Shown here: piece after piece, positions 11,084-63,259 of the stretch
Numbering within the stretch: the stretch's first letter is position 1
How the letters are laid out: the number at the start of each line of letters is the position of its first letter
From: a virus
DNA length: 64,000 nt
IMG/VR virus record: IMGVR_UViG_3300042261_000976
Coordinates: 4,627-68,626 of that record
Direction: 5' to 3' (one strand)
The notes under the pieces: model-generated
What the model saw: only the letters and a program-made list of their open reading frames with translations
Told to the model about the DNA's origin: nothing
Databases searched by the model: none
Made by a program: the position numbers and the translations under genes

Positions 11084-11169
11084 ATTCTTATTTTATTTTT
11101 TTGAATAAGTATATATCAAAAATTAAAAAGCATTTTTTAATATATAGCATATACGAAAGAAATCATAAT

Positions 11170-19679: not shown

Positions 19680-20251
19680 TTCTCCTCCTCCCAATCTTCT
19701 TCGCCATATGGATCTCTCTCTTTTAAGACTTTTTCTCTTTGTCTTAATATTTCTTTTTCTTCTTCTGTTGGTTTAAATGTATCTGGTAAAGATGATCTAT
19801 ATTTTAATTTATCAGCCAATACGTCCATTTTATTAACACAATTAGCTACAGATTTTCTATTTCCATCTTTTACAGCCTGATATATTGTAACTTTTATATC
19901 TTGTAATTGTTCTTCTATATCTGGGTTCTCTTCTAATAATTCTTTGGCTTTACGATATTTTCTATCAGTCTTAATTAGATGGGATCTATTACTTTTTATA
20001 TTTATATAAAGATCTCTGAATAAACCTCTATACCAAGCTATTCCTGTTGGTAATATAAAAAGAGATCCTAAAATATAAATTAATATATGCCATCACATAT
20101 CCATACTCATTAGATTAAATAATTGACCTAAAGCTCCAATAGAAAAGAAAAAAGCTATAGCTTGAGCATCATCATTTTTAAGTTTTCTCATCATAAAATC
20201 ATGATATACACTTTCATTTAGATATTCGTTATATGTTTGTATATTGTTCAT
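19676..20251 (-). pseudogene. tandem paralog of 20248..20853 interrupted by in-frame TGA (20093-20095); ends DPYGEEDWEEEK
   Basis: MNNIQTYNEYLNESVY.. then TGA then WHILIYILGSLF.. continues in the same frame for 139 codons; aligns to neighbour paralog. Confidence 0.5.
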
Positions 20252-20853: not shown

Positions 20854-21153
20854 AATTTTGCGTATTTTTTTTGCATTATTATTGCTATATATTAAATAAT
20901 AAAAACAAAAAATCAAAAGAGGTTAATCGGGATTTTTGGAAAAGGTGATTCGTTACAAACAGAATATTATTAACAATTTCTAATTAGATATAGACTTGTT
21001 ATAGTTGCCATAGTAAAACTAATATAAATAGAGAAAATTGGCAAACTTTTTTCGATAATATTATAAAAGAAAGATATGACAAATTGACATACGATATAAT
21101 TGGCATAGAAATTGATAAATAAAAATAAAATTAATGTAAAAGAAAGGAAAAAA

Positions 21154-23277: not shown

Positions 23278-23310
23278 AAAAAAGAGGGACTTAAGTCCCT
23301 CTTTTTTTTA
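23278..23310 (+). terminator. intrinsic terminator hairpin agagggac-ttaa-gtccctct + T8
   Basis: perfect palindrome immediately after dnaK stop; also serves the convergent minus gene. Confidence 0.55.
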
Positions 23311-24999
23311 TGTCCCATATGATATATCTGATGCTCCTCCAATATTCCACGTTGGACCTTTATAATCTTCATCTACCATAATTTTTCCTTCTCCACTACA
23401 ATCGTCACATTCTCCTCCCGTGCTTTTTCTGCCCCAACCTTTACAAGAAGGACATTCTATTTGTTTATAATGTTTTATTTTAGCTTTAGATTTTGGTTTT
23501 ACAACATCGTCAAATTGTTTATAAAAATCGTTTTCAATATTTGATTTTGGTTTTGATTTTGTTTTACTGGCTAAAAATGTACTTATTTCTTGTTCCTTTG
23601 ATTTTGATGATTTTACATTTTTAGATAGTTTTTCATCACTTGCACTCAAAGTGCCTGGTTCTACATACAATCTTAAAGTTTTCTCATCTTCATAATCTCC
23701 TCCGTGAAAAACTATCATCCATTTACCGTCTGTTTTTCTAACACCATCAAACTGTCCGATTTTACCATTATACTTACTACCTGGAAGATTATATTTAACG
23801 CGTTGTCCTTGTCGAAATGGTGAAGTAACTTTTTTACCAACAGGTTCCCATTTTCCTCCGCTATAATCACCATAATCTGAAGCTTTCTTAAAATCCCACC
23901 AATTATCATCATATGATTTATCGGTATCTACATATGGAGATATTTTCTTCTTTGGTTTCTCTACAACACCTAAACCTTGACAATGCTTACACGGTACTGG
24001 TAAAAGTAAGTCGTTCACATGATGTTGTGATGTTAAAGTATAACCTCTACCGTTACAATATTCACATTCATCGTATTTCGACGGATCTGGATTTCTTTTT
24101 TTCTTATTGTCGCCGTATGGCGATTTTTTCTTTTTTAATTGTGTTTCATTTGGTATAACTCCTTCGCCTCCACATTCATCACAAGGATCATCGTAAGTCG
24201 ACATAACAACACCGCTTCCCCCACATTCTTCGCATTCTGATCCGTCATTTAATTCTCCTTCTCCATCACATTCATCACAAGGATCTTCAGTTTCGATTTC
24301 TAAGGTTCCTGCCCCGTGGCAAATTGGACATTCTATGTCATCTTTATCTTCGTCTTCGTTTTCTTCTTCTTTGTCTAGTTTAAGAGCACGTAACATTTCT
24401 TCCTTTGAAATTTGTGGTAAATCTCGTCTCGCTCCGAAATCTGATATTTTCACCTTAAACGGTTCCGTTTGTTTTGGTTTTTCTTTTGGTTTAGTTGTAC
24501 CAACAACATCAACTATGCCTACTTTTCTAGCTATACTCCTTTCTCTCTCATCTTCTTCCCATGATTCTTCACCATAAGGATCTAAATCCTTCATAGCTTT
24601 TTCTTTCATATTATGTAGAATATAAGCACATTTATCTATCATGAAATCAAGAGTTTCCTTATGTTGTTCTCTTTTTGTTACTTTTATTCTTCTTTCATAA
24701 GTTTCTTGATTAAGATTATCTTTCGCTGTAAGTATATAAGTTATAACATCATCTACATCTACAATCTTCTTTATTGTAAATGTAAAATATTTCTCTACAC
24801 ACTTAGCTTCTTTCTCGTTACTATCTACTTCAAAATCATCATGTTTTAACATTCTTATTTCCTCTTCAGAGAATAAGTCAGCTGGACGTTTTTCTATTCT
24901 TTCGCGCTCTTCATCGTCGCGATGGTATTTTAGTTTACCAGAACTAAGTTTTCTTTTCAATTCTTCGTTTATCTTATTATATCTTTGAATATAATCCAT
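23308..24999 (-). CDS. DnaJ-type zinc-finger (7x CxxCxGxG) protein, no J domain; contains DPYGEESW
   Basis: CPICHGAG, CDECDGEG, CEECGGSG, CDECGGEG, CEYCNGRG, CKHCQGLG, CPSCKGWG, CDDCSGEG. Confidence 0.6.
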   Translation of the reverse strand: MDYIQRYNKINEELKRKLSSGKLKYHRDDEERERIEKRPADLFSEEEIRMLKHDDFEVDSNEKEAKCVEKYFTFTIKKIVDVDDVITYILTAKDNLNQETYERRIKVTKREQHKETLDFMIDKCAYILHNMKEKAMKDLDPYGEESWEEDERERSIARKVGIVDVVGTTKPKEKPKQTEPFKVKISDFGARRDLPQISKEEMLRALKLDKEEENEDEDKDDIECPICHGAGTLEIETEDPCDECDGEGELNDGSECEECGGSGVVMSTYDDPCDECGGEGVIPNETQLKKKKSPYGDNKKKRNPDPSKYDECEYCNGRGYTLTSQHHVNDLLLPVPCKHCQGLGVVEKPKKKISPYVDTDKSYDDNWWDFKKASDYGDYSGGKWEPVGKKVTSPFRQGQRVKYNLPGSKYNGKIGQFDGVRKTDGKWMIVFHGGDYEDEKTLRLYVEPGTLSASDEKLSKNVKSSKSKEQEISTFLASKTKSKPKSNIENDFYKQFDDVVKPKSKAKIKHYKQIECPSCKGWGRKSTGGECDDCSGEGKIMVDEDYKGPTWNIGGASDISYGT

Positions 25000-25490: not shown

Positions 25491-26045
25491 ATGGATATAT
25501 TTAGACCTAAAATAGAAGATGAGGGTAAATCATTTATAATTAGACCTTTACTAAATGCTAAAGGTTTGAAAAATAAAGAACCACATATAGTTCATTATGA
25601 TATAGGATTAAGAGGATTTATGAATGTGCCAATACAGGGGTATTTATGTTTTGCTCTTGTCGATGATGAATTAAAAATCATCAGATTTGGAAAAGTCATG
25701 TTAGATTTTATTAAAAGTAATAGTGAACATGGTGCAGACTTTCTTTTCATGAATAATGATAAGGCTATTAAAATGAATGTATCAGTAAAAAGAATTAATA
25801 ACGATCGTGAAAAAGCAGCTTTTTTTAACCCTTCTTATGAAATTGTTCAAGATAATAAATATAGGTTTGATGATACTCCTGAAAAAAGAAAATACATAAG
25901 CGATCTATTAATGAATACAGAACTCGACTTAAATGACGCCTTAAAAGAAGAAATAGAAAAAGTCGCAAAACTTAAAGAGAAAGAAGAACAAAGACTGAAA
26001 TTCGCCGACGTTGATCCTTACGGTGAAGAAGATTGGGGATTCTAA
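25491..26045 (+). CDS. hypothetical protein ending ..DVDPYGEEDWGF
   Basis: track ORF; C-terminal motif. Confidence 0.5.
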   Translation: MDIFRPKIEDEGKSFIIRPLLNAKGLKNKEPHIVHYDIGLRGFMNVPIQGYLCFALVDDELKIIRFGKVMLDFIKSNSEHGADFLFMNNDKAIKMNVSVKRINNDREKAAFFNPSYEIVQDNKYRFDDTPEKRKYISDLLMNTELDLNDALKEEIEKVAKLKEKEEQRLKFADVDPYGEEDWGF

Positions 26046-38687: not shown

Positions 38688-39326
38688 ATGGTAAACTCTT
38701 ATTCCCGTATAATTATAATTATGATTAAACTGCACTCCAGTCAATTTACAACTATCTTTATATGCTTGTCTTAACATCTTTACTGGATAATTTCCATTAA
38801 GTACAAAAGATTCTGATTTCCCGTGGCCATCTGAAGACCAGTCACCAATTAAAATAATAAATTTATGATCCTTTATAACGGGTTCATCGTCTACTTCCTC
38901 TTCATCTCCGAACTCGCCTTTATCATGCCATTTAATAATAGATTCATTGAATTTATAAAAACTTTTCAAATGTTTCATTGATTCATCAGTGCTCCAATCT
39001 TCTTCACCGTAAGGATCTTCGGGTGATACTATTTTTTTCCTTTCTTTATAATATACTATCATGTTAGTTGTTTCATCTACAATACTACTTGATGTTCCAA
39101 CTTGCATAACAGCCCCATGTCTAACTGGTTCGGAATTTCCCTCATAAATAAATTCCAATCCGCCATTATAGGAATATCTGGGCCAATATTTTACTCCTAA
39201 TATTCTAACTTCTTTTTTACCAAGATGTGTCCACAAAACATTATTCTCTATAAGTTCATTCAAATAATTTGAAGATTCTTCAAATCCCATAGATGATATT
39301 AAATCTTTGATGATTATTTTATCCAT
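38625..39326 (-). CDS. hypothetical protein with internal DPYGEEDW; candidate tail-assembly-chaperone-like (G) ORF directly upstream of the giant repeat protein
   Basis: position and overlapping -1 ORF mirror the lambda G/GT arrangement. Confidence 0.5.
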   Translation of the reverse strand: MDKIIIKDLISSMGFEESSNYLNELIENNVLWTHLGKKEVRILGVKYWPRYSYNGGLEFIYEGNSEPVRHGAVMQVGTSSSIVDETTNMIVYYKERKKIVSPEDPYGEEDWSTDESMKHLKSFYKFNESIIKWHDKGEFGDEEEVDDEPVIKDHKFIILIGDWSSDGHGKSESFVLNGNYPVKMLRQAYKDSCKLTGVQFNHNYNYTGIRVYHLKKDMKKLKKDKFVLNMTMV

Positions 39327-39339
39327 TATTGATATTTAT

Positions 39340-39786
39340 TTACCATATCTCCTCGCCATAAGGATCGTTTTTTAAGTATAAAAGGTCATTTTCACGAGCA
39401 TCATCTATTATATCTTCTATGTTTGATAACACTTCTATGGTTTTTTGGATTATAGATTCTATTTTATCTGGACTAATTTTAGCCATCCTTATAGAATTTC
39501 TAGCAAACTCTTCAATTTTATCAGTAACAGATATAGTCGATGGCCATATAGGATCTGGAATCTTTTTAAAATCTGATTTTTCTATATCTTCTATCCCTGT
39601 TTTTATCGACCCGTCTGAATTTTTATATATTCCACCACCAGCTGCATTAAAGACTGTTCCTTTTTTTATATTTATTTTTCTTCTATTAAAAACATCACTA
39701 ACATCTGTATCTTTTGTGGCTACATAATAAGAGTGATAATCTGACCAATCTTGATCTTCTTTTATGTAATTATAAAAACTTATCAT
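39340..39786 (-). CDS. hypothetical protein ending ..NDPYGEEIW
   Basis: C-terminal motif immediately before stop. Confidence 0.5.
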   Translation of the reverse strand: MISFYNYIKEDQDWSDYHSYYVATKDTDVSDVFNRRKINIKKGTVFNAAGGGIYKNSDGSIKTGIEDIEKSDFKKIPDPIWPSTISVTDKIEEFARNSIRMAKISPDKIESIIQKTIEVLSNIEDIIDDARENDLLYLKNDPYGEEIW

Positions 39787-44508: not shown

Positions 44509-45051
44509 ATGGTAAGAACTTTTGAAGAATATAGATATATTAATTTCGGAATGTTTGATGGTGCTGGTAGTAAAAAAGATCCCAACGAACCATTTTTTCT
44601 TGCAAAAAAACATAAATATTTTCAAGATCAAAGAGATGAAGCAAGAAGACAAGAAAGAGAAGCAAGAAGACAACGAGATGATATTAACTATATCAATGGT
44701 CTGGAAGCGTCTAGAAACCAACTACCTTTAATAAATAGGTGTATAGATATAATAGAAAAAGATCCAGATTCTATTGTTAGAACTAAATATGAAGAATCAG
44801 ATTATGGTAGTGGAATATATGGAATTCTTTTAAAAAATAAAACAGTAATAGTAACTAGAATAGACGGGAGCGATAGAGTCTCTTACTTGAAAATAAATAA
44901 AGTACTAATGTCAAGCACTAAAGAAAAGAAAATAAATAAAGACGTTGATGTGTATGGTGAAGAAAATTGGGAAGACGATAATATAACACCGTATGAAAAA
45001 TTATCACGTTTAGTTAAAGATTACGTCGAACAAAATGAAATTATATTCTAA
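44509..45051 (+). CDS. hypothetical protein with DVYGEENW variant motif
   Basis: MVRTFEEYRY leader; ATGA-coupled to next gene. Confidence 0.5.
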   Translation: MVRTFEEYRYINFGMFDGAGSKKDPNEPFFLAKKHKYFQDQRDEARRQEREARRQRDDINYINGLEASRNQLPLINRCIDIIEKDPDSIVRTKYEESDYGSGIYGILLKNKTVIVTRIDGSDRVSYLKINKVLMSSTKEKKINKDVDVYGEENWEDDNITPYEKLSRLVKDYVEQNEIIF

Positions 45052-45968
45052 TGACAACTAAAGAATTACAAGATAGAATAGCACAATCATTCGAAATATT
45101 TGGGGATACTCCATTCGATGAAAGAATGGACGATATTCAAAAAGAATATTTTCACTTTATTAGATATAGAGACCCTAAAAATCTTAAAGAAGAAGTTGGA
45201 GATTTAGTTTCTAGTTTAATACAATTATGTAACGAAAAAGGTTGGGAATTAGATGATGTTATTGGTAATACTCTAAATAAAATAGATAGAAGAAAGGATC
45301 AATACGGATCTCTTGGTAGAAGAGTTCAAGTCGCAATATTAGGAGGAGCTTTCGATCCTATTCATAACGGACATATACAATTAGCACAACACGTATTAAA
45401 TTTAAGTGGCGTAATAGATGAAGTATGGCTAATGCCACCAGCATCACACATGTATGGTAAAAAAATGGAATCTGCTCAAGACAGATTAAATATGTGTAGA
45501 TTGGCAGCTGAAAGAGATAGAAGAATCAGAGTATTTAATTATGAAGTAGAACATAAATTAGCTGGAGAAACATATTTCTTTTTCAAGAAATTACTTGGAG
45601 AAAAGGAACTTAATGAAAAATATGAATTTTCAATGATAATTGGATTGGATAATGCTAATTTTTTTGATAAATGGGTTAATTATAAATATCTTGAAAGAAT
45701 GGTTAGATTTATCGTAGTTCCAAGAAAAGGAGTAACAAGAGATCCAAAAGTCGATTGGTACTTAAGACCGCCTCATGTTTTTATGAATGAAGAAACAGAG
45801 ATCATGGAAATATCATCAACTCAGGTGAGAAAGATGTTACAAGAAAATGATCCAAATATAACTAAATATTTAGATCCAAAAGTAGTTGATTATATAAAAG
45901 AAAATCATCTTTATGGTGTTGGCGGAGTTGTTGAAAAATATAATAATTTCGTAAAAAAATTAAAATAA
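45051..45968 (+). CDS. MazG-like NTP pyrophosphohydrolase fused to nicotinate/nicotinamide mononucleotide adenylyltransferase (NadD-like)
   Basis: N-term EEVGDLVSSLIQL MazG helix; then ILGGAFDPIHNGH (HxGH nucleotidyltransferase motif) and SxxxxR-like C-terminal region. Confidence 0.7.
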   Translation: MTTKELQDRIAQSFEIFGDTPFDERMDDIQKEYFHFIRYRDPKNLKEEVGDLVSSLIQLCNEKGWELDDVIGNTLNKIDRRKDQYGSLGRRVQVAILGGAFDPIHNGHIQLAQHVLNLSGVIDEVWLMPPASHMYGKKMESAQDRLNMCRLAAERDRRIRVFNYEVEHKLAGETYFFFKKLLGEKELNEKYEFSMIIGLDNANFFDKWVNYKYLERMVRFIVVPRKGVTRDPKVDWYLRPPHVFMNEETEIMEISSTQVRKMLQENDPNITKYLDPKVVDYIKENHLYGVGGVVEKYNNFVKKLK

Positions 45969-49319: not shown

Positions 49320-49378
49320 TAACTTTAATTATTTTTTATCTTACTTTTTTTATATATAGATAAAAAGTGGATCGAATT

Positions 49379-52312
49379 ATGATTAAATTGTTAGTTATTG
49401 AAGATCACCCAAGTATGATTTCCGGTTTAGAATGTTTATTAAAAGGAGATGTGGAAGTGACATTTTCATCTAATGATATGGATAATGCCTTGAATTTCGA
49501 TCATACTAAATTCGATATAATATTATTAGATTTATTATTACCAGAGACAAACCCTATAAATAATGTTAAGAGATTAAAAGAAATTTATCCAAACCCCATT
49601 GTTATATTTACTTGTGAAGATTCTAATTTATGGAAGAAAAAGATGTTTGATATTGGTGTCATGGGTTATTTAATCAAAACATCTAATAAGGAAAAAATAG
49701 TAACTACTTTACATCAAGTTTTAAAAGAGTTTAAAAGAGATAAAGAATTGCAATATCCAAACTTGAAAATATGTAATCTAGATTTTTTTAATTTTTTAGA
49801 TGATATGTTTTTTGTTTTAGACTTAAAGGGAAACATTATAGAGTATAATACAAGTGTAACAAGAAAACTTAGATATTTAAAAGAAGATTTGATTGGTAAA
49901 AATATACAAAAATTTTTCAATAGTGATGTATCTTCTATTTTTACTGGTGAATATTCTAATAAAAGAATTCCAATTTTAAATTCAGATGGAAATAGTTTAT
50001 TCGTAGAAATACGAAGTTTAAAAATACACGCTAGATGTAGCTTAGAAGATTATTTATTAATAGTAGCGAAAGATATAGAAGCAGAGGAGAAATATAAAAA
50101 TATTTTTGATAATTCTACTCAAGGAATTTTTCAATCTACAATGGATGGGAAGTATATTACAGTAAATCCGGCTTTTGCTCAATTATGTGGATATGAAAGT
50201 CCTGAAGAATTATCTACTAGTGTTAAAAATATTTCAGATCAAATATACGCAAATAAAAGCGATAGAGATCAATTTCTAGATACATTATTAAAATATGGTA
50301 AAGTAAAAAATGCCGAAGGACAAATCAAAAGAAAAGACGGCGATAAAATATGGGTTTCTTGTAGTGCTAAATTAATAAAAAATAAAGACGGAACACCATT
50401 ATACATAGATGGTATAATAGATAATATCACAGATAAAAAAGATACAATAGAAAATTATATTTCTTTATTGAAAGCTATTCCGGATATGATGGTCAGAGTG
50501 AGAAAAGACGGTCTTATTATGGATATAAAACCAGGTGAAGGAACATATTCTGAATTAGGACAATCTACTCATTACATAGGTGGAAATATAGGGAATTTAC
50601 CGTTTGGTGATGTAATAACGACTAAATTTAAAAATATTATAAAAGAGGTTATTGAAAAAGAAGAACCTATTGAATTTTGTTATGCTATTTTTATTAAAGG
50701 AATTGAAAGGAATTATTATTCAAGAACTGTAAAGAATGGTGAAAGTGAAGTTATAGTAATAGTCAGAGAAATAACAGAAGAAATAAATATAAGAAATGAT
50801 TTAACATATTCCAGAGATTATTCTGAAAATATAATCAATACAGCAAATGCCATGATTATAGAATTAGATAATAGTGGCAATATAATCACTTTCAATAAGG
50901 CAGCTGAAGAGGTTACTGGATATAAAAAAGAAGAACTTTTTGGTAAAAATTGGTTCGAAACATTATGTCCCAAAGATAGATTCCCTCATGTGTGGGAAGA
51001 ATTCAATGGATTGATGAAACAAAAAATAGAGGCTAAAGACTTTGAAAATCCAATTCTTACAAAGAGCGGGGAAGAGAGATATATTGTTTGGAAAAACAAT
51101 GAAGTAAAATCTAATAATAAAGTCGTGGGTGTAATATCTTTCGGTCTTGATATAACAGAAATGAAAAAGACATCGGAGGAATTAAAAATAGCCAAGGAAA
51201 AAGCAGAGCAATCAGATAAAATGAAATTAGAATATCTTTCTAACATGAGTCACGATCTTCGTACCCCAATGAATGCTATTATAGGATTTACAGATTTATT
51301 AAGAGCTAATAATCTAACCAAAAACGAAAAACACGATTATATTAATACTATTATAAATAACGGTAAATATTTGATGGCTCTTATAGACGATATTATTGAC
51401 ATTTCTAAAATTGACGCTGGAAGTCTTAAAGTAGAAAATAGAGATTTTGAAATAAATAAACTCATGGAAGAACTTCGTCTTTCATATATAAAACAAATTA
51501 AAGATAAAAATATAGAAATTATAATAGATATAGATGTTAATAAAAATATTATAATACAATCTGATAAATATAGACTAAGACAAATTATGGCAAATCTTAT
51601 AGGAAACGCTATAAAATTTACAAACGATGGTTATGTCAAATTCGGATATAAAATACTGAATAATAGAATGTTAGAAATATATGTTGAAGATACAGGTCCA
51701 GGTATAGAGAAACAAAATCAGAAAATAATTTTTGAAAGATTTAAGCAATTAAATGATACCAATAAATATAAAGGAGCTGGACTTGGTTTGTCTATAAGTA
51801 AATCTTTGGTTGAACTATTAGGATTTAAAGAAATAAAATTAGTATCTGAATTTGGTAATGGTAGTAGATTTTATTTTAATGTGCCTTACGATGTGAAAAA
51901 TTTTACTTATATGTCTGATATTAAAGAAAGAAAACATAAGAAAATAAATTTTGCTGGAAAAAATATTCTTTTAGTAGAAGATAATAGAGATAGTAGAACA
52001 ATTATGAAATCTTATCTACAAGATACAAAAGCCAATGTTATAGAAATGAAAGATGGTATTGGTATATTAGATGTTATAAAAGAAAAAGAAATAGATTTAG
52101 TTTTATTGGATATTGGTCTTCCTGGAGGTAAAAATGGTTATGTAATATTAGAAGAAATAAAAAATTATGATAACAGATTACCAGTTATTATAGAATCAGC
52201 TTTAGCTATGCCGGATCAAAAAAATAAGGCATATGATTTAGGATGTGATGATTTTATATCCAAACCTTTCAATAGGGAAGATTTTCTAAACAAAATAGAT
52301 AACTTACTATAA
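49379..52312 (+). CDS. hybrid sensor histidine kinase: REC - 3x PAS - HisKA - HATPase_c - REC
   Basis: start at ATG 49379 (MIKLLVIEDH); ILLDLLLP Asp pocket; MSHDLRTPMNAI H-box; NLIGNAIKFT / DTGPGI / GAGLGLSISK N,G boxes; C-terminal ILLVEDN..LVLLDIGLPG receiver. Confidence 0.8.
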   Translation: MIKLLVIEDHPSMISGLECLLKGDVEVTFSSNDMDNALNFDHTKFDIILLDLLLPETNPINNVKRLKEIYPNPIVIFTCEDSNLWKKKMFDIGVMGYLIKTSNKEKIVTTLHQVLKEFKRDKELQYPNLKICNLDFFNFLDDMFFVLDLKGNIIEYNTSVTRKLRYLKEDLIGKNIQKFFNSDVSSIFTGEYSNKRIPILNSDGNSLFVEIRSLKIHARCSLEDYLLIVAKDIEAEEKYKNIFDNSTQGIFQSTMDGKYITVNPAFAQLCGYESPEELSTSVKNISDQIYANKSDRDQFLDTLLKYGKVKNAEGQIKRKDGDKIWVSCSAKLIKNKDGTPLYIDGIIDNITDKKDTIENYISLLKAIPDMMVRVRKDGLIMDIKPGEGTYSELGQSTHYIGGNIGNLPFGDVITTKFKNIIKEVIEKEEPIEFCYAIFIKGIERNYYSRTVKNGESEVIVIVREITEEINIRNDLTYSRDYSENIINTANAMIIELDNSGNIITFNKAAEEVTGYKKEELFGKNWFETLCPKDRFPHVWEEFNGLMKQKIEAKDFENPILTKSGEERYIVWKNNEVKSNNKVVGVISFGLDITEMKKTSEELKIAKEKAEQSDKMKLEYLSNMSHDLRTPMNAIIGFTDLLRANNLTKNEKHDYINTIINNGKYLMALIDDIIDISKIDAGSLKVENRDFEINKLMEELRLSYIKQIKDKNIEIIIDIDVNKNIIIQSDKYRLRQIMANLIGNAIKFTNDGYVKFGYKILNNRMLEIYVEDTGPGIEKQNQKIIFERFKQLNDTNKYKGAGLGLSISKSLVELLGFKEIKLVSEFGNGSRFYFNVPYDVKNFTYMSDIKERKHKKINFAGKNILLVEDNRDSRTIMKSYLQDTKANVIEMKDGIGILDVIKEKEIDLVLLDIGLPGGKNGYVILEEIKNYDNRLPVIIESALAMPDQKNKAYDLGCDDFISKPFNREDFLNKIDNLL

Positions 52313-52329
52313 ATATAAAAAATAAATAC

Positions 52330-52617
52330 TTGATTATGAATTATGCAGTAATGGAATTAAGAAGAAAGCAGATTAATGATTATATGTCTTCAATAGAATT
52401 GAACGAGAGTTCTATAAGTGTTAGTCAAATTAAAAGTGATTTGCAAAATATTCTAGGTGAAAAACCAGGAATAGAACTAAAATACAAATCCGACGCAGTA
52501 ATGATGGAAGGCAAAGAAAAGAAAAGAAAAAAAGGAATACTAGAATCTATTACTATTTTCTATACATACGAAGAATCTGATGGTCCTCATTTTGATAGGG
52601 TTTCTTATTTTATCTAA
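52330..52617 (+). CDS. hypothetical small protein
   Basis: track ORF; followed in the same frame by TAA, 4 codons, TAA, then 82 stop-free codons. Confidence 0.35.
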   Translation: MIMNYAVMELRRKQINDYMSSIELNESSISVSQIKSDLQNILGEKPGIELKYKSDAVMMEGKEKKRKKGILESITIFYTYEESDGPHFDRVSYFI

Positions 52618-54112: not shown

Positions 54113-54356
54113 CTTTCTTTAGTTTTTTATTAATTTTATGTCTAACATAATGTTTTACATATTTGTATATTTCTCTTAGATGTGTGAGATCAACTCCGTA
54201 GTTGGTGAATAAATAACCAATCATGAAATCTACTATATGCTCTTCGTTAGCGTGTTTATGTATAGCATTTAAGTATTTTTTAGCTTCTTCAAAGGCTATA
54301 TCCATTTTAGATTTATTCAAGAGTCTCTCGTTTACAAATTGATCATATTTTTTCAT
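54096..54356 (-). CDS. hypothetical small protein MKKYDQFVNE
   Basis: track ORF. Confidence 0.4.
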   Translation of the reverse strand: MKKYDQFVNERLLNKSKMDIAFEEAKKYLNAIHKHANEEHIVDFMIGYLFTNYGVDLTHLREIYKYVKHYVRHKINKKLKKGDKGL

Positions 54357-54700
54357 AATTTTATAGTTATTTCATTATCTCCTATTATAATTGGGTATCT
54401 AGTATCCAGTGTATAATAATCATCTCTATCATTACCCATAACAATATATCCATCTTCATCTAAATATATATTATTTACAGTTTCACCAATTACTTTTTTA
54501 TATTTATAAGAAACATACATTGAACTTGAAATAAATAAAATGAAATTAAATTTTATGACTTTATTTAAAATCAACTCTTTTAATTTTTCTATTTTTTCAT
54601 CAATTTCCATTTCAGACAAATCATATTCAGTATTCCAATTCTCTTCACCGTATGGATCTATATCTATTGATTCTAATATGTATTCTTTGAATCTTTTCAT
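54353..54700 (-). CDS. hypothetical protein MKRFKEYILESIDIDPYGEENW..
   Basis: leader + motif at N-terminus. Confidence 0.45.
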   Translation of the reverse strand: MKRFKEYILESIDIDPYGEENWNTEYDLSEMEIDEKIEKLKELILNKVIKFNFILFISSSMYVSYKYKKVIGETVNNIYLDEDGYIVMGNDRDDYYTLDTRYPIIIGDNEITIKL

Positions 54701-56846: not shown

Positions 56847-57208
56847 TCATACCATCTAACTCCTTCATTTAATGCTACTCTAAATAAATCAGCAATTAAA
56901 CATTCTAGATGACAATTATATCTTGTTTTTGTTCCTCCTTCTGGTGTATTATAAAAATAATATCTTGCTTGATCTTCAAGTAAATCGAATATTTTTTTAT
57001 AAACTTCTCTGAACGTTTTTGTATATTCATCATTAGTATATTCATTCAATTTTTTGAATTTATATTCATTAAAAACTTTCAGAATAACTTGTTTTTCTTT
57101 TTCTTCATCTTCTGGACGTAGTTCTAAACCAAACTCATTTTTACTTCTTTCAATATTAGAGTTTATTATATCAAGCAAACTATTATATTTTTTATATTCC
57201 TTAATCAT
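56843..57208 (-). CDS. hypothetical protein MIKEYKKYNS
   Basis: track ORF. Confidence 0.4.
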   Translation of the reverse strand: MIKEYKKYNSLLDIINSNIERSKNEFGLELRPEDEEKEKQVILKVFNEYKFKKLNEYTNDEYTKTFREVYKKIFDLLEDQARYYFYNTPEGGTKTRYNCHLECLIADLFRVALNEGVRWYD

Positions 57209-57518
57209 AACTTATTTCAGTCCATTCTTCTTCGCCATATGGATCTATATCCATATGTTCTATATAATCTTTTTCTCTTATTTTCTCCATTTTTTTTAAG
57301 AAATCTGGGTCTGCTGGAATGAATCTACTCAAGAACCATCCTTCATCACCATCTACTGCACACATCGTATCAGTGCCATCGAACCAAACTCCAGTCAATG
57401 TATAGACTTTATCTTTGACCAGAGCTCCATTAGGTTTAACACAAATAACTTTATCCCCGGCACGAAGATTTAGAAGATTTCTATTTTCATTTATATATGT
57501 TAAATAATTTTTAATCAT
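57201..57518 (-). CDS. hypothetical protein MIKNYLTYINENR.. ending MDIDPYGEEEWTEISYD
   Basis: start moved to internal ATG 57518 (CTS-like leader, removes overlap); track start 57554. Confidence 0.4.
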   Translation of the reverse strand: MIKNYLTYINENRNLLNLRAGDKVICVKPNGALVKDKVYTLTGVWFDGTDTMCAVDGDEGWFLSRFIPADPDFLKKMEKIREKDYIEHMDIDPYGEEEWTEISYD

Positions 57519-57900
57519 TATTCCAGTCCTCCTCACCGTATGGATCAGCTTCAAGATTGACTATTGGATTTCTCTCTTGTAATATTACAATTTTATCTTC
57601 TGGTCCTGGTGCTATTTTATATGAATTTATATTATTAGGATCTTCGGCAAAATACAAATACCAAGTATTATTATTTCTTATATCACTTGTTGTCAAAACA
57701 ACATCTATTCTTCTAACATTAATTGTATATACACGTTTATTATCATAATATAAATATATTCTTATTCTTTTCCCCATGTATTTTTCACGAAGAAAAACTA
57801 AAATTAATTTGGCATCTATTTTCTCAAATCCTCCATTTTTTTCTATTATCTCAGCAACTGTTGTTGGATCTATTTCTTCATATTTTTCCTTAAATTTCAT
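57511..57900 (-). CDS. hypothetical protein ending ..EADPYGEEDWNND
   Basis: C-terminal motif. Confidence 0.45.
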   Translation of the reverse strand: MKFKEKYEEIDPTTVAEIIEKNGGFEKIDAKLILVFLREKYMGKRIRIYLYYDNKRVYTINVRRIDVVLTTSDIRNNNTWYLYFAEDPNNINSYKIAPGPEDKIVILQERNPIVNLEADPYGEEDWNND

Positions 57901-59378: not shown

Positions 59379-59392
59379 GTCCTCTTTTTTAT
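59366..59392 (+). terminator. hairpin gaggac-taa-gtcctc + T6
   Basis: right after stop of 58959..59378. Confidence 0.45.
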
Positions 59393-59724
59393 ATCTGTAT
59401 TTTTTTAATACAAGTTCTTTTATCGTCTGTTATTCTCATCAAATACAATCCCTTAGATAGTTTTTTATTAATAATATCTTCTTTATTTATTTGCTCGTCT
59501 ATGACTTTCATTCCCAATATATCATATATTGTATATTGAATTGGTTCGTCAGTCTTTATAAAAAAATCAACACTATCATTGTTTGATTTTATATATACTT
59601 CAACTTTATAACTTTCAGTCGTAACACTTGTCCATTTTTCATTAGAATTTAATGAAAAAGATCTTTGTATTCCACCCAAAAACATTAAGATAGAAAATAC
59701 AAATAATAATAAAATTCTTTTCAT
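59389..59724 (-). CDS. secreted protein with signal peptide and Por/T9SS C-terminal sorting domain
   Basis: start at MKRILLLFVFSILMFLGG (59724); C-term YTIYDILGMKVIDEQ..KLSKGLYLMRITDDKRTCIKKIQI matches T9SS CTD pattern. Confidence 0.55.
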   Translation of the reverse strand: MKRILLLFVFSILMFLGGIQRSFSLNSNEKWTSVTTESYKVEVYIKSNNDSVDFFIKTDEPIQYTIYDILGMKVIDEQINKEDIINKKLSKGLYLMRITDDKRTCIKKIQI

Positions 59725-59760
59725 AAGCAATTTATTTTTTTTTAATCCATATATATAAAA

Positions 59761-59792
59761 AACAAAATCCGTCTTTTCAGACGGATTTTGTA
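59761..59792 (-). terminator. hairpin aaatccgtct-tttc-agacggattt
   Basis: 10-bp stem 3' of gene 59798..60316. Confidence 0.45.
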
Positions 59793-59797
59793 ATTTA

Positions 59798-60316
59798 TTA
59801 ATTATCATACTCTTTTGTTCCTTCAAGTCGGCTTTTGAATTCTTCCAGAACTATTTGCAAGCTAGATGTTATATTGCCTAAAATTTCTTTTTCCATTTTA
59901 TCTCTATCTTCTTTAACTTTATCATCAAACATTCTGCTCATTTTTGATGATGTTTTTTCTGGTAGATCAATATCATATCTATATTGGTGATTTACTATAG
60001 TTAATTTACCGCTTTCGAGAATAAGAAATGTGTTTATTTCGTTATTTATAACATATTGTTTGCTAACGATATATTTCTTATATGACATTCCAACATTCAA
60101 ATATCTTATATTATTTTCGTCATTCAAAGATATTTTGAATATGTCAAAAGCTAATTTTTGAACTGGGTTCAAAACATCGTCTTTATCTATTTTTTTCCAG
60201 ATGTTTTGAAATGTTCTGGATAATAGATTTTTTCTTTTTATAGAGGACGTATCGTCCTCCATTCTTACTGGTTTTTCCATCTTAATTTTGTTTAACAGGA
60301 TAAATTCTAACATCAC
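59798..60316 (-). CDS. hypothetical protein
   Basis: track ORF. Confidence 0.45.
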   Translation of the reverse strand: MMLEFILLNKIKMEKPVRMEDDTSSIKRKNLLSRTFQNIWKKIDKDDVLNPVQKLAFDIFKISLNDENNIRYLNVGMSYKKYIVSKQYVINNEINTFLILESGKLTIVNHQYRYDIDLPEKTSSKMSRMFDDKVKEDRDKMEKEILGNITSSLQIVLEEFKSRLEGTKEYDN

Positions 60317-60555: not shown

Positions 60556-61074
60556 TTACTTTTTTGGATTTATCATAACCCAAAGTCTTTTCCCGTCCAT
60601 CTTCGGTAAAGATTCAGCCTTACCATATTCCGATAATGCATCAATGAACTTAAGCAATAAGATATTACCAATATCCGTATAGTTATTCTCTCTTCCAGAG
60701 AAGAAAACTGAAGCCTTTACTTTATCTCCTTCCTGGAGAAAACTAATAGCATGTCTCAACTTAAAGTTGAAGTCGTGATCTCCGGTGTTATAAGTAAATC
60801 TTAATTCTTTAACTTTAACTTTTTTATTATTTTGTTTTTGAAGCTTGTCTTTTTGTTTCCTTTCATATAAAAGTTTACCATAATCAACTATCTTACATAT
60901 AGGAGGTTTTGCATTCGGTGAAATTTCTACTAAATCTAACCCCATTTCATCGGCAACCTTTAATGCCTCTTGGATGCTAACTACTTTAGTTTCAATTCCT
61001 TCACCGACGATTCTTACTTCGTCTACTCCTCTAATCTGTTTGTTGATTCTTTCTGTTGCTTCTTTTTTGTTCAT
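60556..61074 (-). CDS. infC: translation initiation factor IF-3
   Basis: VVSIQEALKVADEMGLDLVEISPNAKPPICKIVDYGKLLYE..VKELRF..GDHDF..KLRHAISFL collinear with bacterial IF-3; no rpmI/rplT downstream. Confidence 0.8.
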   Translation of the reverse strand: MNKKEATERINKQIRGVDEVRIVGEGIETKVVSIQEALKVADEMGLDLVEISPNAKPPICKIVDYGKLLYERKQKDKLQKQNNKKVKVKELRFTYNTGDHDFNFKLRHAISFLQEGDKVKASVFFSGRENNYTDIGNILLLKFIDALSEYGKAESLPKMDGKRLWVMINPKK

Positions 61075-61100: not shown

Positions 61101-61385
61101 TTAATAAAGTCCGTCAACTCTAAAAATTATATCGTCTTCTATATCTTGACGATTAAGACCTTTCCTTGTAGAAACCATTACTCTATAAGGATCGTATTCT
61201 GGATTCTCCCACTCGGGAAGAGGCCATTCTTTTCCATCCATCTCTTTTACTACTATTCTAAATCTCATATCCAAACCAGACATTAACATTATATCTACAA
61301 CTTCTCCTAGAGAATTTGTGATTAAAAAATCAAAACTTGGCGGATCTGTACTAACTGGATATTTGTAAGGATATACATATTTCAT
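61101..61385 (-). CDS. hypothetical protein
   Basis: track ORF. Confidence 0.4.
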   Translation of the reverse strand: MKYVYPYKYPVSTDPPSFDFLITNSLGEVVDIMLMSGLDMRFRIVVKEMDGKEWPLPEWENPEYDPYRVMVSTRKGLNRQDIEDDIIFRVDGLY

Positions 61386-61789
61386 ACTAATTCCGGATTA
61401 TGTTTTAAGAAATTACGTACATAACTTCTAATATTAGCAGCCCCAATATTGTTGAAGGAATGAACCATTATAGTTGGAAATTTTTCATTATTATCCAAAC
61501 AATAATCACACAACCACTTGGCACACTCATACCCTGTTTTTTCTTTATAAGAGAAGTAATCAATAACTCCATCTACAGACCAAAGCATATCATCTCTACC
61601 ATAATGTTCATCAGCTAAATCATGATCGAAAGAAACAAGACTGGGGACTCCTTCATTCTGAATAATCTTGACGAAATTTTCATAATTTCTAACTATGATC
61701 CATTCTAGCTTAGAATATCTTGTGTCTCTCATATAATTGAAGGCATCAAGCGGGACACGTATATCATCAAGAAATAAATTGTAATTCAT
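61382..61789 (-). CDS. hypothetical protein
   Basis: ATGA-coupled. Confidence 0.45.
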   Translation of the reverse strand: MNYNLFLDDIRVPLDAFNYMRDTRYSKLEWIIVRNYENFVKIIQNEGVPSLVSFDHDLADEHYGRDDMLWSVDGVIDYFSYKEKTGYECAKWLCDYCLDNNEKFPTIMVHSFNNIGAANIRSYVRNFLKHNPELV

Positions 61790-62149: not shown

Positions 62150-63259
62150 TTAAAATTCCTTTTTATCAATGCTTTTATAGAAGTTTTCTGAATTATAATA
62201 TTTTTTATATACTTCGATAACCTTGTCTAATGTTATATCGTTAATGTTCTTTTCAATTGACCAACTTTCTGGTTTTATATAAGTTTCCACATTACTATGT
62301 CTATTTATCTCTACTGTATCTATTTTATTCAATATGGAGTTTTTTACTTGATTGAATTTATCTTCTGTTAAAAAAGAAGTATAATCATCTAGAGTTTCGT
62401 CTAATTTGTCCATTAGATTATATACCTTATAATCATCAGTTTCAGTAGATATTATATTAACTCCGGAATAATCACTCAATCTATCTAGAGTACATCTTAT
62501 GTAATAAGACATGCCTGATTTTTTTCTTATATTCTTATATAATGGAGAGTTCAATCCATTTGATAATAGATAATTTATAAAAAACGCTGCCGCCCAGTCG
62601 CTTTCAACTATAGTTGAAAAATATATTATTGAAGACTTATTAAGAAGAGTTTTATATTTCTCTATATATATATTTCCTGTAATGTTGTATTGAACATGGT
62701 AATCGTTCTTAAAATCATTGAATTTTATTTCGTCTTCAAAATCATTATTCTTAGAAACATTTATTATTTTTGAAGGTGTTTTATAGTATTTATTGAAATA
62801 CTCTATACAATCTGATATTTTTATATTTTCCAGATCTTTTTTGTTTCCAATGGAGTTATAGGTATTAAACAATTTTCTATATAGATTCAATAGATGTGAA
62901 GAACTTTGAATATTAAAAATACCAGTGTATTCTTCCAAAAGAGAATCCTTTACTATTTGAAAATCTTTATCTGAAATGTTTATATAAGACAATCTATGTA
63001 AGAATTGTTTTTTGTATTTTGATACATATTTATCAAGTCCATTTAAATAGAATACTATATTTGTTGGAGATGTATAAGCATTCCAAGATAAACCGTTGTT
63101 TTGAAATTCTTCTACGATGTTATCTTCGAAGTTATGACTTATTATGTGTTCTATTAGGTGAGATATTCCATGAGTTCCTTCTACTTCATTTATGGCGGTC
63201 CTATTATATACGACGTAGAATCCTGACAATTCTGTTTGACTCTTTATGTTTAGAATCAT
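62150..63259 (-). CDS. M16 (pitrilysin/insulinase) family peptidase-like protein
   Basis: inverted zinc motif HxxEH (GISHLIEHII) near N-terminus. Confidence 0.55.
   Translation of the reverse strand: MILNIKSQTELSGFYVVYNRTAINEVEGTHGISHLIEHIISHNFEDNIVEEFQNNGLSWNAYTSPTNIVFYLNGLDKYVSKYKKQFLHRLSYINISDKDFQIVKDSLLEEYTGIFNIQSSSHLLNLYRKLFNTYNSIGNKKDLENIKISDCIEYFNKYYKTPSKIINVSKNNDFEDEIKFNDFKNDYHVQYNITGNIYIEKYKTLLNKSSIIYFSTIVESDWAAAFFINYLLSNGLNSPLYKNIRKKSGMSYYIRCTLDRLSDYSGVNIISTETDDYKVYNLMDKLDETLDDYTSFLTEDKFNQVKNSILNKIDTVEINRHSNVETYIKPESWSIEKNINDITLDKVIEVYKKYYNSENFYKSIDKKEF

What the first reader, a model, noticed from the sequence alone, without database searches (positions are those of the whole stretch)
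49379..52312. Bacterial-type hybrid sensor kinase (REC-PAS3-HisKA-HATPase-REC) encoded among phage-like genes
All catalytic motifs are intact: the H-box MSHDLRTPMNAI, the N and G boxes, and two receiver domains with conserved Asp. Three PAS-like segments lie between the first receiver and the kinase core.

A phosphorelay sensor of this complexity is unexpected on a virus-like element. It suggests sensing of host physiological state, or hijacking of a host two-component pathway.

The start should be the ATG at 49379 (MIKLLVIEDH), not the track's GTG at 49367.
Basis: partly seen in the sequence, partly recalled or inferred. Interest (0 to 1): 0.6.

Follow-up and report, generated by a model that had tools for sequence, protein, structure and literature searches.

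The report
Sensor kinase conserved in huge phages
A complete bacterial-type sensor kinase with intact catalytic motifs sits in a relative of the largest known phage genome. It has been kept under purifying selection across that phage lineage, so these giant phages probably do some of their own sensing of the infected cell.

Summary
The ORF at 49379-52312 (+) encodes a 977-aa soluble hybrid histidine kinase: REC, four PAS-like domains (not three), HisKA, HATPase_c, REC. All catalytic residues are intact. An ortholog has an in-frame stop directly before its ATG, which supports the ATG at 49379 as the start.

The context is phage. The whole window is collinear with a 735,411-bp 'uncultured phage' record, and the kinase sits in the same slot there. 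It also sits there in every related viral locus long enough to show its neighbours.

The gene is not a recent host capture. The best cellular hits are 27-45% identical, almost all Bacteroidales, whereas phage copies are 42-72% identical. The phage copies are monophyletic in an unbootstrapped NJ tree, with dN/dS of 0.07-0.2. A phage promoter-like motif lies 12-18 nt upstream in most loci.

The complete 735-kb relative encodes one such kinase, no Hpt, no DNA-binding response regulator, and one conserved stand-alone receiver. That receiver is a candidate phage-encoded partner.

The protein is an ordinary member of a known family. The conserved megaphage context is the interesting part. Signal and output remain inferred.

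The parts
49349..49366 (+). Promoter-like motif TTTATATATAGATAAAAA, ending 12 nt before the ATG
   Evidence: In the window there are 18 matches with up to 3 mismatches, against 2.67 expected. The motif lies 12-18 nt upstream of the kinase start with 0-3 mismatches in 9 of 13 loci checked: 8 of 12 orthologous loci plus the window. In LR756501, 24 of 34 hits are followed within 40 nt by an ORF, against 12% for random positions. Promoter function is inferred.
49379..52312 (+). Hybrid sensor histidine kinase CDS (977 aa plus stop)
   Evidence: ORF. Pfam domains. Start supported by the in-frame TAA in the ortholog. Intact in 12 loci, dN/dS 0.07-0.4.
49385..49723 (+). N-terminal receiver domain (aa 3-115; E8, D9, D51, T78, K100), with a 'VIEDHP' start that resembles NarL/FixJ receivers
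   Evidence: Second Response_reg stretch in Pfam. Local REC HMM, i-E 2.7e-23. Residue positions. Present only in some clade members: the window, P0002, P0004, L013 and L118. The NarL/FixJ resemblance is recalled from memory and was not tested.
49799..50077 (+). PAS-A (aa ~141-233)
   Evidence: Pfam PAS_9 at 3.6e-8 on the subsegment aa 121-244.
50123..50434 (+). PAS-B (aa 249-352)
   Evidence: Best stretch of Pfam PAS_9.
50450..50788 (+). PAS-C (aa 358-470): divergent PAS fold, the most conserved sensor segment of the phage clade
   Evidence: No Pfam hit and no PDB sequence hit. AF2 model pLDDT 81.9. Foldseek matches BvgS PAS, HTR-like PAS, LOV, PYP and FixL PAS with probability 1.0 and TM about 0.6. 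Mean column identity 71%.
50825..51154 (+). PAS-D (aa 483-592)
   Evidence: Best stretches of Pfam PAS (PF00989), PAS_3 and PAS_4.
51224..51421 (+). HisKA dimerisation and phospho-acceptor domain (aa 616-681); H625 codon at 51251-51253; the H-D-L-R-T sequence fits the HisKA phosphatase motif
   Evidence: Pfam HisKA 4.7e-18. H625 invariant in 13 sequences. Position. The phosphatase motif H-[E/D]-x-x-[T/N] is general knowledge, not tested here.
51563..51889 (+). HATPase_c catalytic domain (aa 729-837) with N, G1, F and G2 boxes
   Evidence: Pfam 3e-22. N739, N743, D771, G773, G775, F785, G799, G801 and G803 are invariant.
51965..52297 (+). C-terminal receiver domain (aa 863-973); D911 codon at 52109-52111
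   Evidence: Best stretch of Pfam Response_reg. E867, D868, D911, S940 and K962 are invariant.
52336..52617 (+). Conserved 93-aa gene directly downstream on the same strand, possibly co-transcribed; a functional link to the kinase is uncertain
   Evidence: Found directly downstream of the kinase in 13 of the 15 IMG/VR and ENA loci searched and in LR756501, at 37-81% identity. Single copy in LR756501. No Pfam or PHROG match. AF2 model alpha2-beta3, pLDDT 79, with no PDB fold match and not Hpt-like. In a more distant relative it follows an AAA ATPase instead, so it may simply be a backbone gene.

Best explanation
This is a functional, soluble, PAS-sensing hybrid histidine kinase encoded by a huge phage that probably infects Bacteroidota. 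The window is a relative of the 735-kb 'uncultured phage' record LR756501.

Origin. The gene appears to have been acquired once, long ago, from a Bacteroidales-type hybrid kinase. It was inserted between a RuvC-like gene and a small backbone gene, and has since been inherited vertically under purifying selection. The core is fixed: divergent PAS-C, PAS-D, HisKA, HATPase and REC. The N-terminal input modules have been swapped, with or without a receiver and with two to five PAS domains in total.

Mechanism (inferred). The gene is expressed from a phage promoter-like element. The PAS array senses an intracellular cue in the infected cell. The kinase autophosphorylates on H625 and passes the phosphoryl group to its own D911, and possibly to a stand-alone receiver. 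The complete relative encodes no Hpt and no DNA-binding response regulator, so the output most likely runs one of two ways. Either it goes through the lineage's conserved about 122-aa stand-alone receiver, acting by protein-protein contact, or it goes through host Hpt and response-regulator proteins.

In variants like this window's, the N-terminal receiver adds a phosphorylation-dependent input, possibly from a host kinase.

Shown here: the domains, motifs, phage context, conservation, selection and partner inventory. Inferred: the cue, the phosphotransfer route and the physiological output.
For: Domains and motifs:
- Domain matches and catalytic residues are intact and invariant.
- The fourth PAS domain is shown by structure prediction and fold search.
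- No transmembrane segment.

Phage context:
- Window ORFs from 248 to 63259 hit LR756501 collinearly, from 723.6 kb across the record's ends to 53 kb. 58 of 79 ORFs of at least 100 aa have hits.
- The kinase lies between the RuvC-like gene and the 93-aa gene in LR756501, in ENA and JGI contigs, and in 13 of the 14 IMG/VR contigs (up to 243 kb) that carry a relative; the exception is a 4.4-kb contig.
- GC content over the gene (0.27) matches its flanks.

Not cellular:
- In 5.8 billion proteins, identity drops from 51% or more (12 clade members) to 36% or less.
- The GTDB scan's best hits are 27-45% identical, nearly all Bacteroidales or Bacteroidota.
- In an NJ tree of 195 kinase-core-plus-REC sequences, all 22 phage sequences form one clade with no cellular sequence inside. 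The sister is a Bacteroidales MAG.

Selection:
- All 12 loci examined have intact ORFs.
- dN/dS is 0.074 for the 87%-identical pair LR756501 versus L007, with dS 0.96. It is about 0.2 for the window against LR756501 or L002.

Expression signal:
- The upstream motif is conserved in 9 of 13 loci checked, and it is a genome-wide gene-upstream element.

Partner inventory in the complete 735-kb genome:
- One histidine kinase.
- No Hpt. The custom HMM found ArcB HPt, YPD1 and CheA P1 controls at 1e-9 to 1e-15.
- Exactly one further canonical receiver, a stand-alone one (Pfam Response_reg 1.2e-18).

The stand-alone receiver:
- It forms a family of 64 clusters at 55-100% identity, on contigs up to 194 kb.
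- It sits in a conserved slot.
- It co-occurs with the kinase in samples ERZ795026, 3300009692 and 3300025715.
Against: - No expression, phosphorylation or ligand data exist.
- The window covers only 64 kb of the phage, so the stand-alone receiver is shown for relatives, not for this genome.
- Kinase and receiver lie 314 kb apart in LR756501. Co-occurrence in a sample does not prove they share a genome.
- Hybrid kinases normally need an Hpt to reach a terminal response regulator. None was found, so the route to the stand-alone receiver would have to be direct His-to-Asp transfer, or go through a host Hpt.
- The phage identity of LR756501 rests on its database label, on its size matching the 735-kb genome of Al-Shayeb et al. 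(PMC7162821; the accession is not in the main text), and on IMG/VR classification. I did not independently find capsid or terminase genes.
- The NJ tree has no bootstrap values.
Confidence: 0.72

Rival explanations
1. Host-hijack only. The phage kinase exists to phosphorylate or dephosphorylate host Hpt and response-regulator proteins, rewiring host two-component signalling. The stand-alone receiver is unrelated to it.
For: No Hpt and no DNA-binding response regulator in the complete relative. The closest cellular kinases are Bacteroidales, the predicted host group, so cross-recognition is plausible. The H-D-L-R-T sequence after H625 fits the HisKA phosphatase motif (plus general knowledge). 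phiCDHM1 AgrC was likewise proposed to signal through a host regulator (PMC3901668).
Against: At most 45% identity to any cellular kinase suggests long independent evolution, which usually erodes partner specificity. The lineage also keeps its own canonical receiver, whose closest relatives among the receivers compared are the kinases' C-terminal receivers, at 55-60 bits.
Confidence: 0.3
2. The region is bacterial chromosomal DNA, or a misassembled or misbinned contig, and the kinase is an ordinary host gene.
For: The domain architecture is typical of bacteria. Many 'phage' database records with kinase hits are evidently bacterial contamination, for example Salmonella and Acinetobacter records of several hundred kb.
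Against: The full 64 kb is collinear with a 735-kb phage record. The same synteny appears on 13 IMG/VR contigs plus ENA and JGI contigs. No cellular ortholog was found. The gene shares GC content and an upstream motif with its phage neighbours.
Confidence: 0.03
3. A passenger gene. It was captured from a host and is carried neutrally or is decaying, with no role in the phage life cycle.
For: Large phages accumulate host-derived genes. The N-terminal part is variable in architecture.
Against: All catalytic residues are invariant across sequences 42-72% identical. dN/dS is 0.07-0.2. The position and upstream motif are conserved. The phage copies are monophyletic.
Confidence: 0.04
4. The kinase forms a dedicated two-gene module with the 93-aa downstream protein, which would be its direct target or regulator.
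For: The small gene lies directly downstream on the same strand in 13 of the 15 IMG/VR and ENA loci searched, in LR756501, and in L118. This holds even where it is only 37-45% identical. It is single copy in LR756501.
Against: In a more distant relative, its homolog follows an AAA ATPase in the same backbone region near the 5'-3' exonuclease. Its remote family has 134 representative clusters, nearly all stand-alone proteins of about 60-150 aa, with a single 1554-aa exception at E 3e-6, and none scanned for signalling domains. Its predicted fold matches no known signalling fold and is not an Hpt. L008 has a kinase and no detectable copy.
Confidence: 0.15

Closest known systems
Bacteroidales/Bacteroidota cytoplasmic PAS-containing hybrid histidine kinases (HisKA family)
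   Same: The PAS-HisKA-HATPase_c-REC core and all catalytic motifs are shared. They are the closest sequence relatives (27-45% identity) and the sister group in the NJ tree.
   Different: Encoded by a phage, with no cellular ortholog. The clade has its own divergent PAS-C domain that Pfam does not detect. It is driven by a phage upstream motif.
Unorthodox and hybrid kinases ArcB, TorS, BarA, LuxQ (NCBIfam equivalogs)
   Same: Best NCBIfam alignments over the kinase core plus receiver (TorS 8.5e-87, LuxQ 3.5e-86, BarA 2.1e-77, ArcB 4.2e-71).
   Different: Scores of 240-292 bits against cut-offs of 676-1200 bits, so it is not an equivalog. It has no transmembrane or periplasmic sensor and no Hpt domain.
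AgrC histidine kinase of Clostridioides difficile phage phiCDHM1 (PMC3901668)
   Same: A histidine kinase encoded in a phage genome, with no DNA-binding response regulator in the phage.
   Different: AgrC belongs to a peptide quorum-sensing cassette in a roughly 50-kb temperate phage and is closely related to host agr genes. It has no PAS or receiver domains. The protein here is a soluble hybrid kinase, deeply diverged from cellular genes, in a huge phage.
Hybrid histidine kinases of phaeoviruses such as EsV-1 (Delaroque et al. 2000/2001, cited in PMC12993054)
   Same: Virus-encoded hybrid histidine kinases in a large-genome virus, proposed to sense cues for the viral programme.
   Different: Those are eukaryote-infecting nucleocytoviruses. 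No relationship was tested here.
Phage VP882 VqmA-type PAS receptor
   Same: A phage-encoded PAS sensor used for a phage decision. VqmA PAS domains are among the structural matches of PAS-C, at E about 3e-4.
   Different: VqmA is a one-component PAS-HTH transcription factor with no kinase or phosphorelay. The comparison of function is from memory and is only a lead.
PHROG families phrog_20458, phrog_5982, phrog_10912
   Same: Strong full-length matches over the kinase core and receiver (3.8e-85, 4.2e-60, 2.8e-48). This shows that kinase-like proteins are already catalogued among phage and prophage proteins.
   Different: Those families are unannotated or labelled only 'kinase'. Their members' genomic reliability (phage versus prophage flank) was not examined.

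Membership tests
HisKA-type sensor histidine kinase | HisKA dimerisation domain with the conserved phospho-acceptor His in an H-box | tested here: met
   Pfam HisKA 4.7e-18 at aa 616-681. MSHDLRTPMN with H625, invariant in 13 sequences.
HisKA-type sensor histidine kinase | HATPase_c domain with N, G1, F and G2 nucleotide-binding boxes | tested here: met
   Pfam HATPase_c 3e-22. N739, N743, D771, G773, G775, F785, G799, G801 and G803 are invariant.
HisKA-type sensor histidine kinase | ATP-dependent autophosphorylation | not testable with these tools
   Needs purified protein and labelled ATP.
Hybrid histidine kinase | Receiver domain fused C-terminal to the kinase core, with the acidic pair, phospho-acceptor Asp, Ser/Thr and Lys | tested here: met
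   Response_reg at aa 863-973. E867, D868, D911, S940 and K962 are invariant.
Unorthodox kinase / multistep phosphorelay (ArcB, BarA, TorS type) | Hpt domain in the protein or encoded in the genome | tested here: not met
   No PF01627 in the protein. The custom Hpt HMM found nothing in the window, in the whole of LR756501 or in the viral loci (best E 0.15), while positive controls scored 1e-9 to 1e-15.
NCBIfam equivalogs TorS, LuxQ, BarA, ArcB | Score above the curated equivalog cut-off | tested here: not met
   240-292 bits against cut-offs of 676-1200 bits.
PAS sensor domains | PAS fold: five-stranded antiparallel sheet with flanking helices | tested here: met
   Three domains by Pfam. The fourth (aa 358-470) only by predicted structure and Foldseek. 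No LOV or heme-type motif was found, so any cofactor or ligand is unknown.
Bacteroides hybrid two-component system (HTCS) | Periplasmic sensor, transmembrane segments and a fused AraC-type DNA-binding domain | tested here: not met
   No transmembrane segment. No HTH domain in Pfam.
Phage-encoded gene of the 735-kb huge-phage lineage (Mahaphage clade of Al-Shayeb et al., by inference) | Located in conserved synteny within phage genomes and absent as an ortholog from cellular genomes | tested here: met
   for synteny. for the lack of a cellular ortholog.
Phage-encoded gene of the 735-kb huge-phage lineage (Mahaphage clade of Al-Shayeb et al., by inference) | Virion hallmark genes (capsid, portal, terminase) on the same replicon | not tested
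   I relied on the record's label, on PMC7162821 and on IMG/VR classification. The large window proteins tested had no PHROG structural match.
Cognate two-component pair (kinase plus response regulator) | A receiver-containing partner encoded in the same genome | tested here: inconclusive
   The complete relative LR756501 has one stand-alone receiver at 350284-350658. The window itself has no second canonical receiver, only a cREC domain at 61382-61789, a type reported never to occur in kinase systems. The rest of this phage's genome was not available.
Cognate two-component pair (kinase plus response regulator) | Specific phosphotransfer between the two | not testable with these tools
   Needs in vitro phosphotransfer profiling.

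The most novel reading that the evidence does not exclude
This huge-phage lineage carries its own minimal two-component circuit: a soluble PAS hybrid kinase plus a conserved stand-alone receiver, with no Hpt and no DNA-binding output. It is expressed from a phage promoter. The phage would use it to read the metabolic or redox state of the infected Bacteroidota cell and steer a long infection programme by protein-protein signalling. That would make it a virus-owned sensory pathway rather than a hijacked host one.
Probability: 0.3. Interest if true: 0.7.

Novelty: new member of a known kind. Interest (0 to 1): 0.5.

Why it matters
Phage decision-making through dedicated sensors, such as arbitrium peptides or phage VqmA, is an active field, but the known cases are one-component or peptide systems.

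Here a full ATP-driven sensor kinase has been kept for a long evolutionary time in the lineage that includes the largest published phage genome. A stand-alone receiver is conserved alongside it. Together these suggest that the very largest phages run part of the signal transduction normally left to cells.

The finding gives concrete, clonable proteins to test: the kinase core, the stand-alone receiver and the divergent PAS-C domain. It also adds host-range evidence, because both the Bacteroidales affinity of the kinase and a T9SS sorting domain on a nearby gene point to Bacteroidota.

The limits are that the protein family itself is ordinary and that the phages are uncultivated.

Tried and rejected
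- Looking up the exact window protein in the contig index found nothing on record, so the rest of the 114-kb source contig could not be read.
- The IMG/VR scan with the single protein found nothing. It worked only with the clade alignment.
- PHROG scans of the large neighbouring proteins (805, 1335, 729, 762 aa and others) gave no structural-gene match, so there is no independent capsid or terminase evidence from the window.
- An Hpt was sought in the kinase, the window, the whole 735-kb relative and all viral loci. None was found, and the HMM was validated on remembered ArcB, YPD1 and CheA P1 sequences.
- The 93-aa downstream ORF was tested as a possible Hpt or partner. It has no Pfam, PHROG or PADLOC hit, a predicted alpha2-beta3 fold and no PDB match. 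A remote homolog lies next to an AAA ATPase instead. The dedicated-partner idea was therefore downgraded.
- The cREC protein at 61382-61789 was considered as the partner and rejected. My REC HMM does not detect it, and its describers say it never occurs in histidine-kinase systems.
- The fusion idea, that the window's N-terminal receiver is the stand-alone receiver fused on, is not supported. The N-terminal receivers form their own family, and the stand-alone receiver is closer to the C-terminal receivers.
- The sigma-70 promoter and terminator scan was uninformative, with fewer hits than the shuffles.
- The PDB sequence search with the PAS-C profile found nothing.
- LOV and heme motif searches in the PAS region found nothing.
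- The PADLOC defence-system scan gave only a generic receiver match.
- There are no tRNAs in the window.
- Literature searches for 'megaphage' with 'sensor histidine kinase', and for kinase or two-component terms in Al-Shayeb et al., found no prior description.
Full report
**1. The observation**

The ORF at 49367..52312 (+) is real. Read from the ATG at 49379 it gives 977 aa.

Pfam finds Response_reg (1.5e-37, two stretches), three PAS stretches (PAS_9 at 3.8e-32, PAS at 2.3e-28), HisKA (4.7e-18, aa 616-681) and HATPase_c (3e-22, aa 729-837). All are well above the curated cut-offs.

The catalytic residues are where they should be:
- H625 in MSHDLRTPMN
- N739 and N743
- D771, G773, G775
- F785
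- G799, G801, G803
- C-terminal receiver: E867, D868, D911, S940, K962
- N-terminal receiver: E8, D9, D51, T78, K100

Those in the kinase core and the C-terminal receiver are invariant in an alignment of 13 relatives.

NCBIfam's best alignments are to TorS, LuxQ, BarA and ArcB, but at 240-292 bits against cut-offs of 676-1200 bits. The protein is therefore a generic hybrid kinase, not an ortholog of any named one. There is no transmembrane segment.

**2. Two corrections to the anatomy**

There are four PAS-like domains, not three. The segment at aa 353-476 has no Pfam match and no PDB sequence match. Yet it is the best-conserved sensor segment of the family, with 71% mean column identity. An AlphaFold model (pLDDT 82) matches PAS, LOV, PYP and FixL domains with probability 1.0 and TM about 0.6.

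The start is the ATG at 49379. In ortholog locus L002 the codon before the ATG is TAA, and the position of the window's GTG reads TAG. Orthologs with the N-terminal receiver start MIKLL... or MIELL....

**3. Context: phage, not chromosome**

By tblastn, window ORFs from 248 to 63259 match the 735,411-bp record LR756501.1 ('uncultured phage'). The matches are collinear, running from 723.6 kb across the record's ends to 53 kb, at roughly 45-85% amino-acid identity. 58 of 79 ORFs of at least 100 aa have hits.

The record's size and label match the 735-kb genome of Al-Shayeb et al. 2020, which is in the Mahaphage clade with a predicted Bacteroidetes host (PMC7162821). The accession does not appear in that paper's main text, so this identification is an inference. 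The paper mentions neither kinases nor two-component systems.

In LR756501 a 737-aa ortholog lies in the same slot, between a divergent RuvC-like gene and a small conserved gene. The same arrangement is seen:
- on ENA and JGI contigs of 47-63 kb
- on 13 of the 14 IMG/VR viral contigs (up to 243 kb) that carry a relative; the exception is a 4.4-kb contig
- on a Logan contig

The gene's GC content (0.27) matches its surroundings.

The window also carries:
- a phage-family helicase (phrog_2488 at 2.7e-94)
- a RuvC-like resolvase (phrog_159)
- an amidase
- a cREC protein (phrog_1479)
- IF3, DnaK and other genes typical of huge phages

I did not find capsid or terminase genes myself.

**4.

A search of 5.8 billion proteins gave 12 relatives at 50-72% identity, all metagenomic. 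It then dropped sharply to 36% or less.

A motif-seeded scan of one genome from each of 185,579 prokaryotic species found only 27-45% identity. Almost all of these hits were in Bacteroidales or Bacteroidota.

In a neighbour-joining tree of 195 kinase-core-plus-receiver sequences, the 22 distinct phage sequences form one clade with no cellular member. Their sister is a Bacteroidales MAG. One 4.4-kb IMG/VR contig (L018) falls among the bacteria and is not part of the clade.

So no host ortholog with conserved synteny exists in these collections. The pattern fits a single old acquisition from a Bacteroidales-like host. A Por_Secre_tail (T9SS) domain on a nearby gene independently points to a Bacteroidota host.

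**5. Evidence that the gene is used**

All 12 orthologous loci examined have intact ORFs. dN/dS is 0.074 for the least saturated pair (LR756501 versus L007, dS 0.96). It is about 0.2 for the window against LR756501 or L002, where dS is saturated.

The N-terminal region is modular. It comes with or without a receiver, with different first PAS domains, and with an extra PAS inserted in three members. From PAS-C onward the protein is fixed.

An 18-nt motif, TTTATATATAGATAAAAA, ends 12 nt before the ATG. It is present 12-18 nt upstream of the kinase start, with 0-3 mismatches, in 9 of 13 loci checked, despite 45-70% protein identity. The motif family is over-represented in the window, with 18 matches against 2.67 expected. 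In LR756501, 24 of 34 occurrences are followed within 40 nt by an ORF, against 12% for random positions. I read it as a phage promoter-like element. That reading is inferred.

**6. Partners**

I fetched the entire 735-kb relative. It contains:
- exactly one histidine kinase, the ortholog
- exactly one more canonical receiver, a stand-alone protein of about 122 aa at 350284-350658 (-)

Pfam confirms the receiver (Response_reg 1.2e-18). It has the acidic residues, the Asp, the Thr and the Lys. There is thus no receiver fused to a DNA-binding domain.

The stand-alone receiver is itself a conserved family:
- 64 clusters at 55-100% identity, on contigs up to 194 kb
- a conserved slot next to an RNase H-like exonuclease and a DUF4842 gene
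- found in the same samples as the kinase: ERZ795026, 3300009692 and 3300025715

Among 50,697 GenBank phage records, the kinase ortholog, the small downstream gene and this receiver each occur only in LR756501 and its duplicate LR756503.

Among the receivers compared, its closest relatives are the kinases' C-terminal receivers. The N-terminal receivers form a separate family, so a simple fusion or fission story is not supported.

The window contains no second canonical receiver. Its cREC protein at 61382-61789 is of a type reported never to occur in kinase systems.

**7. The 93-aa downstream gene**

It follows the kinase in 13 of the 15 IMG/VR and ENA loci searched and in LR756501, and it is single copy there. 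However:
- it has no recognisable domain
- its predicted fold is alpha2-beta3, with no PDB match, and is not an Hpt
- its remote family consists almost entirely of stand-alone small proteins
- in a more distant relative it follows an AAA ATPase

It is probably a backbone gene next to which the kinase was inserted. A functional link is possible but weak.

**8. Mechanism**

What is shown: a soluble, catalytically complete hybrid kinase with four PAS domains and, in this variant, an extra N-terminal receiver. It is encoded and conserved in a huge-phage lineage.

What is inferred. The PAS array senses an intracellular cue, of unknown nature because no cofactor motif was found. H625 is autophosphorylated. 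The phosphoryl group goes to D911, and then either to the phage's own stand-alone receiver by direct His-to-Asp transfer, or to host Hpt and response-regulator proteins. The H-D-L-R-T sequence fits the HisKA phosphatase motif, so a phosphatase or phosphate-sink role is also possible. The N-terminal receiver could take input from a host kinase.

I put about 0.7 on 'functional phage-owned sensor kinase'. Within that, I weight a phage-encoded receiver output and a host-directed output roughly equally.

**9. Comparison with known systems and novelty**

As a protein this is a regular member of the HisKA hybrid kinase family.

Virus-encoded histidine kinases have precedents:
- AgrC of phage phiCDHM1 (PMC3901668)
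- hybrid kinases of phaeoviruses (PMC12993054)
- several unannotated PHROG families that match this protein strongly

I found no description of a kinase or two-component system in huge phages or megaphages.

The call is therefore a new member of a known kind. The context is interesting: the gene is conserved in relatives of the largest known phage, is deeply diverged from cellular genes, and is accompanied by a conserved stand-alone receiver. Interest is about 0.5.

Noticed in passing
window-wide, e.g. 11029-12918 (twice), 17042-19330, 20248-20916, 23308-24999, 25491-26045, 38625-39326, 39340-39786, 44509-45051, 54353-54700, 57201-57554, 57511-57900; also throughout LR756501: A short linear motif D[PV]YGEE, consensus (L)DPYGEExW in an acidic context, occurs in 14 ORFs of the window. 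It occurs in 94 ORFs (109 occurrences) of the 735-kb relative, against 0 in 20 residue shuffles. It often lies near C-termini or between domains. A literature search found no phage-related mention. It could be a sorting, packaging or protease-processing signal shared by about 100 phage proteins. The kinase lacks it.
   Followed up: partly
window 30785-33202 (-): An 805-aa protein with major vault protein domains: MVP_shoulder at 1.6e-27, Vault_3 at 2.4e-12, and a weak Band_7/SPFH match. It is 83% identical to its counterpart in LR756501. A vault-shell-like protein in a huge phage is unusual.
   Followed up: no
window 61382-61789 (-), next to IF3 at 60556-61074 (-): A 135-aa protein with the cREC_REC domain (PF20274 at 4.8e-22; phrog_1479 at 4.5e-26). 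It is conserved beside the IF3 gene in relatives. Its describers link cREC to NAD/ADP-ribose and cyclic-phosphate processing, not to kinase signalling (PMC7824862).
   Followed up: partly
window 49349-49366 and about 17 further sites (e.g. 6548, 16467, 34286, 48599, 55920, 57913, 63320): The motif family TTTATATATAGATAAAAA has 18 hits against 2.67 expected. About half lie 8-15 nt upstream of start codons. In LR756501, 24 of 34 hits precede an ORF within 40 nt, with a median distance of 14 nt. It is probably a lineage-specific promoter or very short leader element.
   Followed up: partly
LR756501 350284-350658 (-) (locus L106 6284-6658); homologs in L114-L117: A stand-alone canonical receiver protein of about 122 aa, conserved in this phage lineage: 64 clusters at 55-100% identity. 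It sits beside an RNase H-like exonuclease and a DUF4842 gene. In LR756501 a CDF cation-efflux gene and a ClpB-like AAA ATPase are nearby.
   Followed up: yes
locus L017 4966-5319 (+): A second, unrelated stand-alone receiver (118 aa) lies 4.3 kb upstream of the kinase in one divergent IMG/VR contig.
   Followed up: no
window 59389-59826 (-): A small protein ending in a Por_Secre_tail (T9SS C-terminal sorting) domain, at 8.6e-7. This is a Bacteroidota-specific secretion signal carried by a phage gene, and supports the host assignment.
   Followed up: no
window 21466-23277 (+), 60556-61074 (-), 16489-16908 (-), 45051-45968 (+), 17042-19330 (-), 62150-63259 (-): Cell-like functions in the phage: a DnaK/Hsp70-like protein (84% identical to LR756501), IF3, AdoMet decarboxylase, a MazG-cytidylyltransferase fusion, a TPM-domain protein with a long Glu/Arg-rich tail, and an M16 peptidase.
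   Followed up: no
window 11029-12918 (+), 14059-15219 (-), 15274-16455 (-): Three paralogous proteins share a conserved C-terminal module (...GGGTLNNSCMR...YMDRIY...). They all hit the same region of LR756501. No Pfam domain was found for the 629-aa and 386-aa members.
   Followed up: no
phages collection, one search hit list: Many 'phage' records with kinase hits are evidently bacterial sequence. Examples are Salmonella assemblies of 500-690 kb and 'Acinetobacter phage MD-2021a' contigs annotated with arcB and barA. Raw counts of kinases in phage databases overstate true phage carriage.
   Followed up: no
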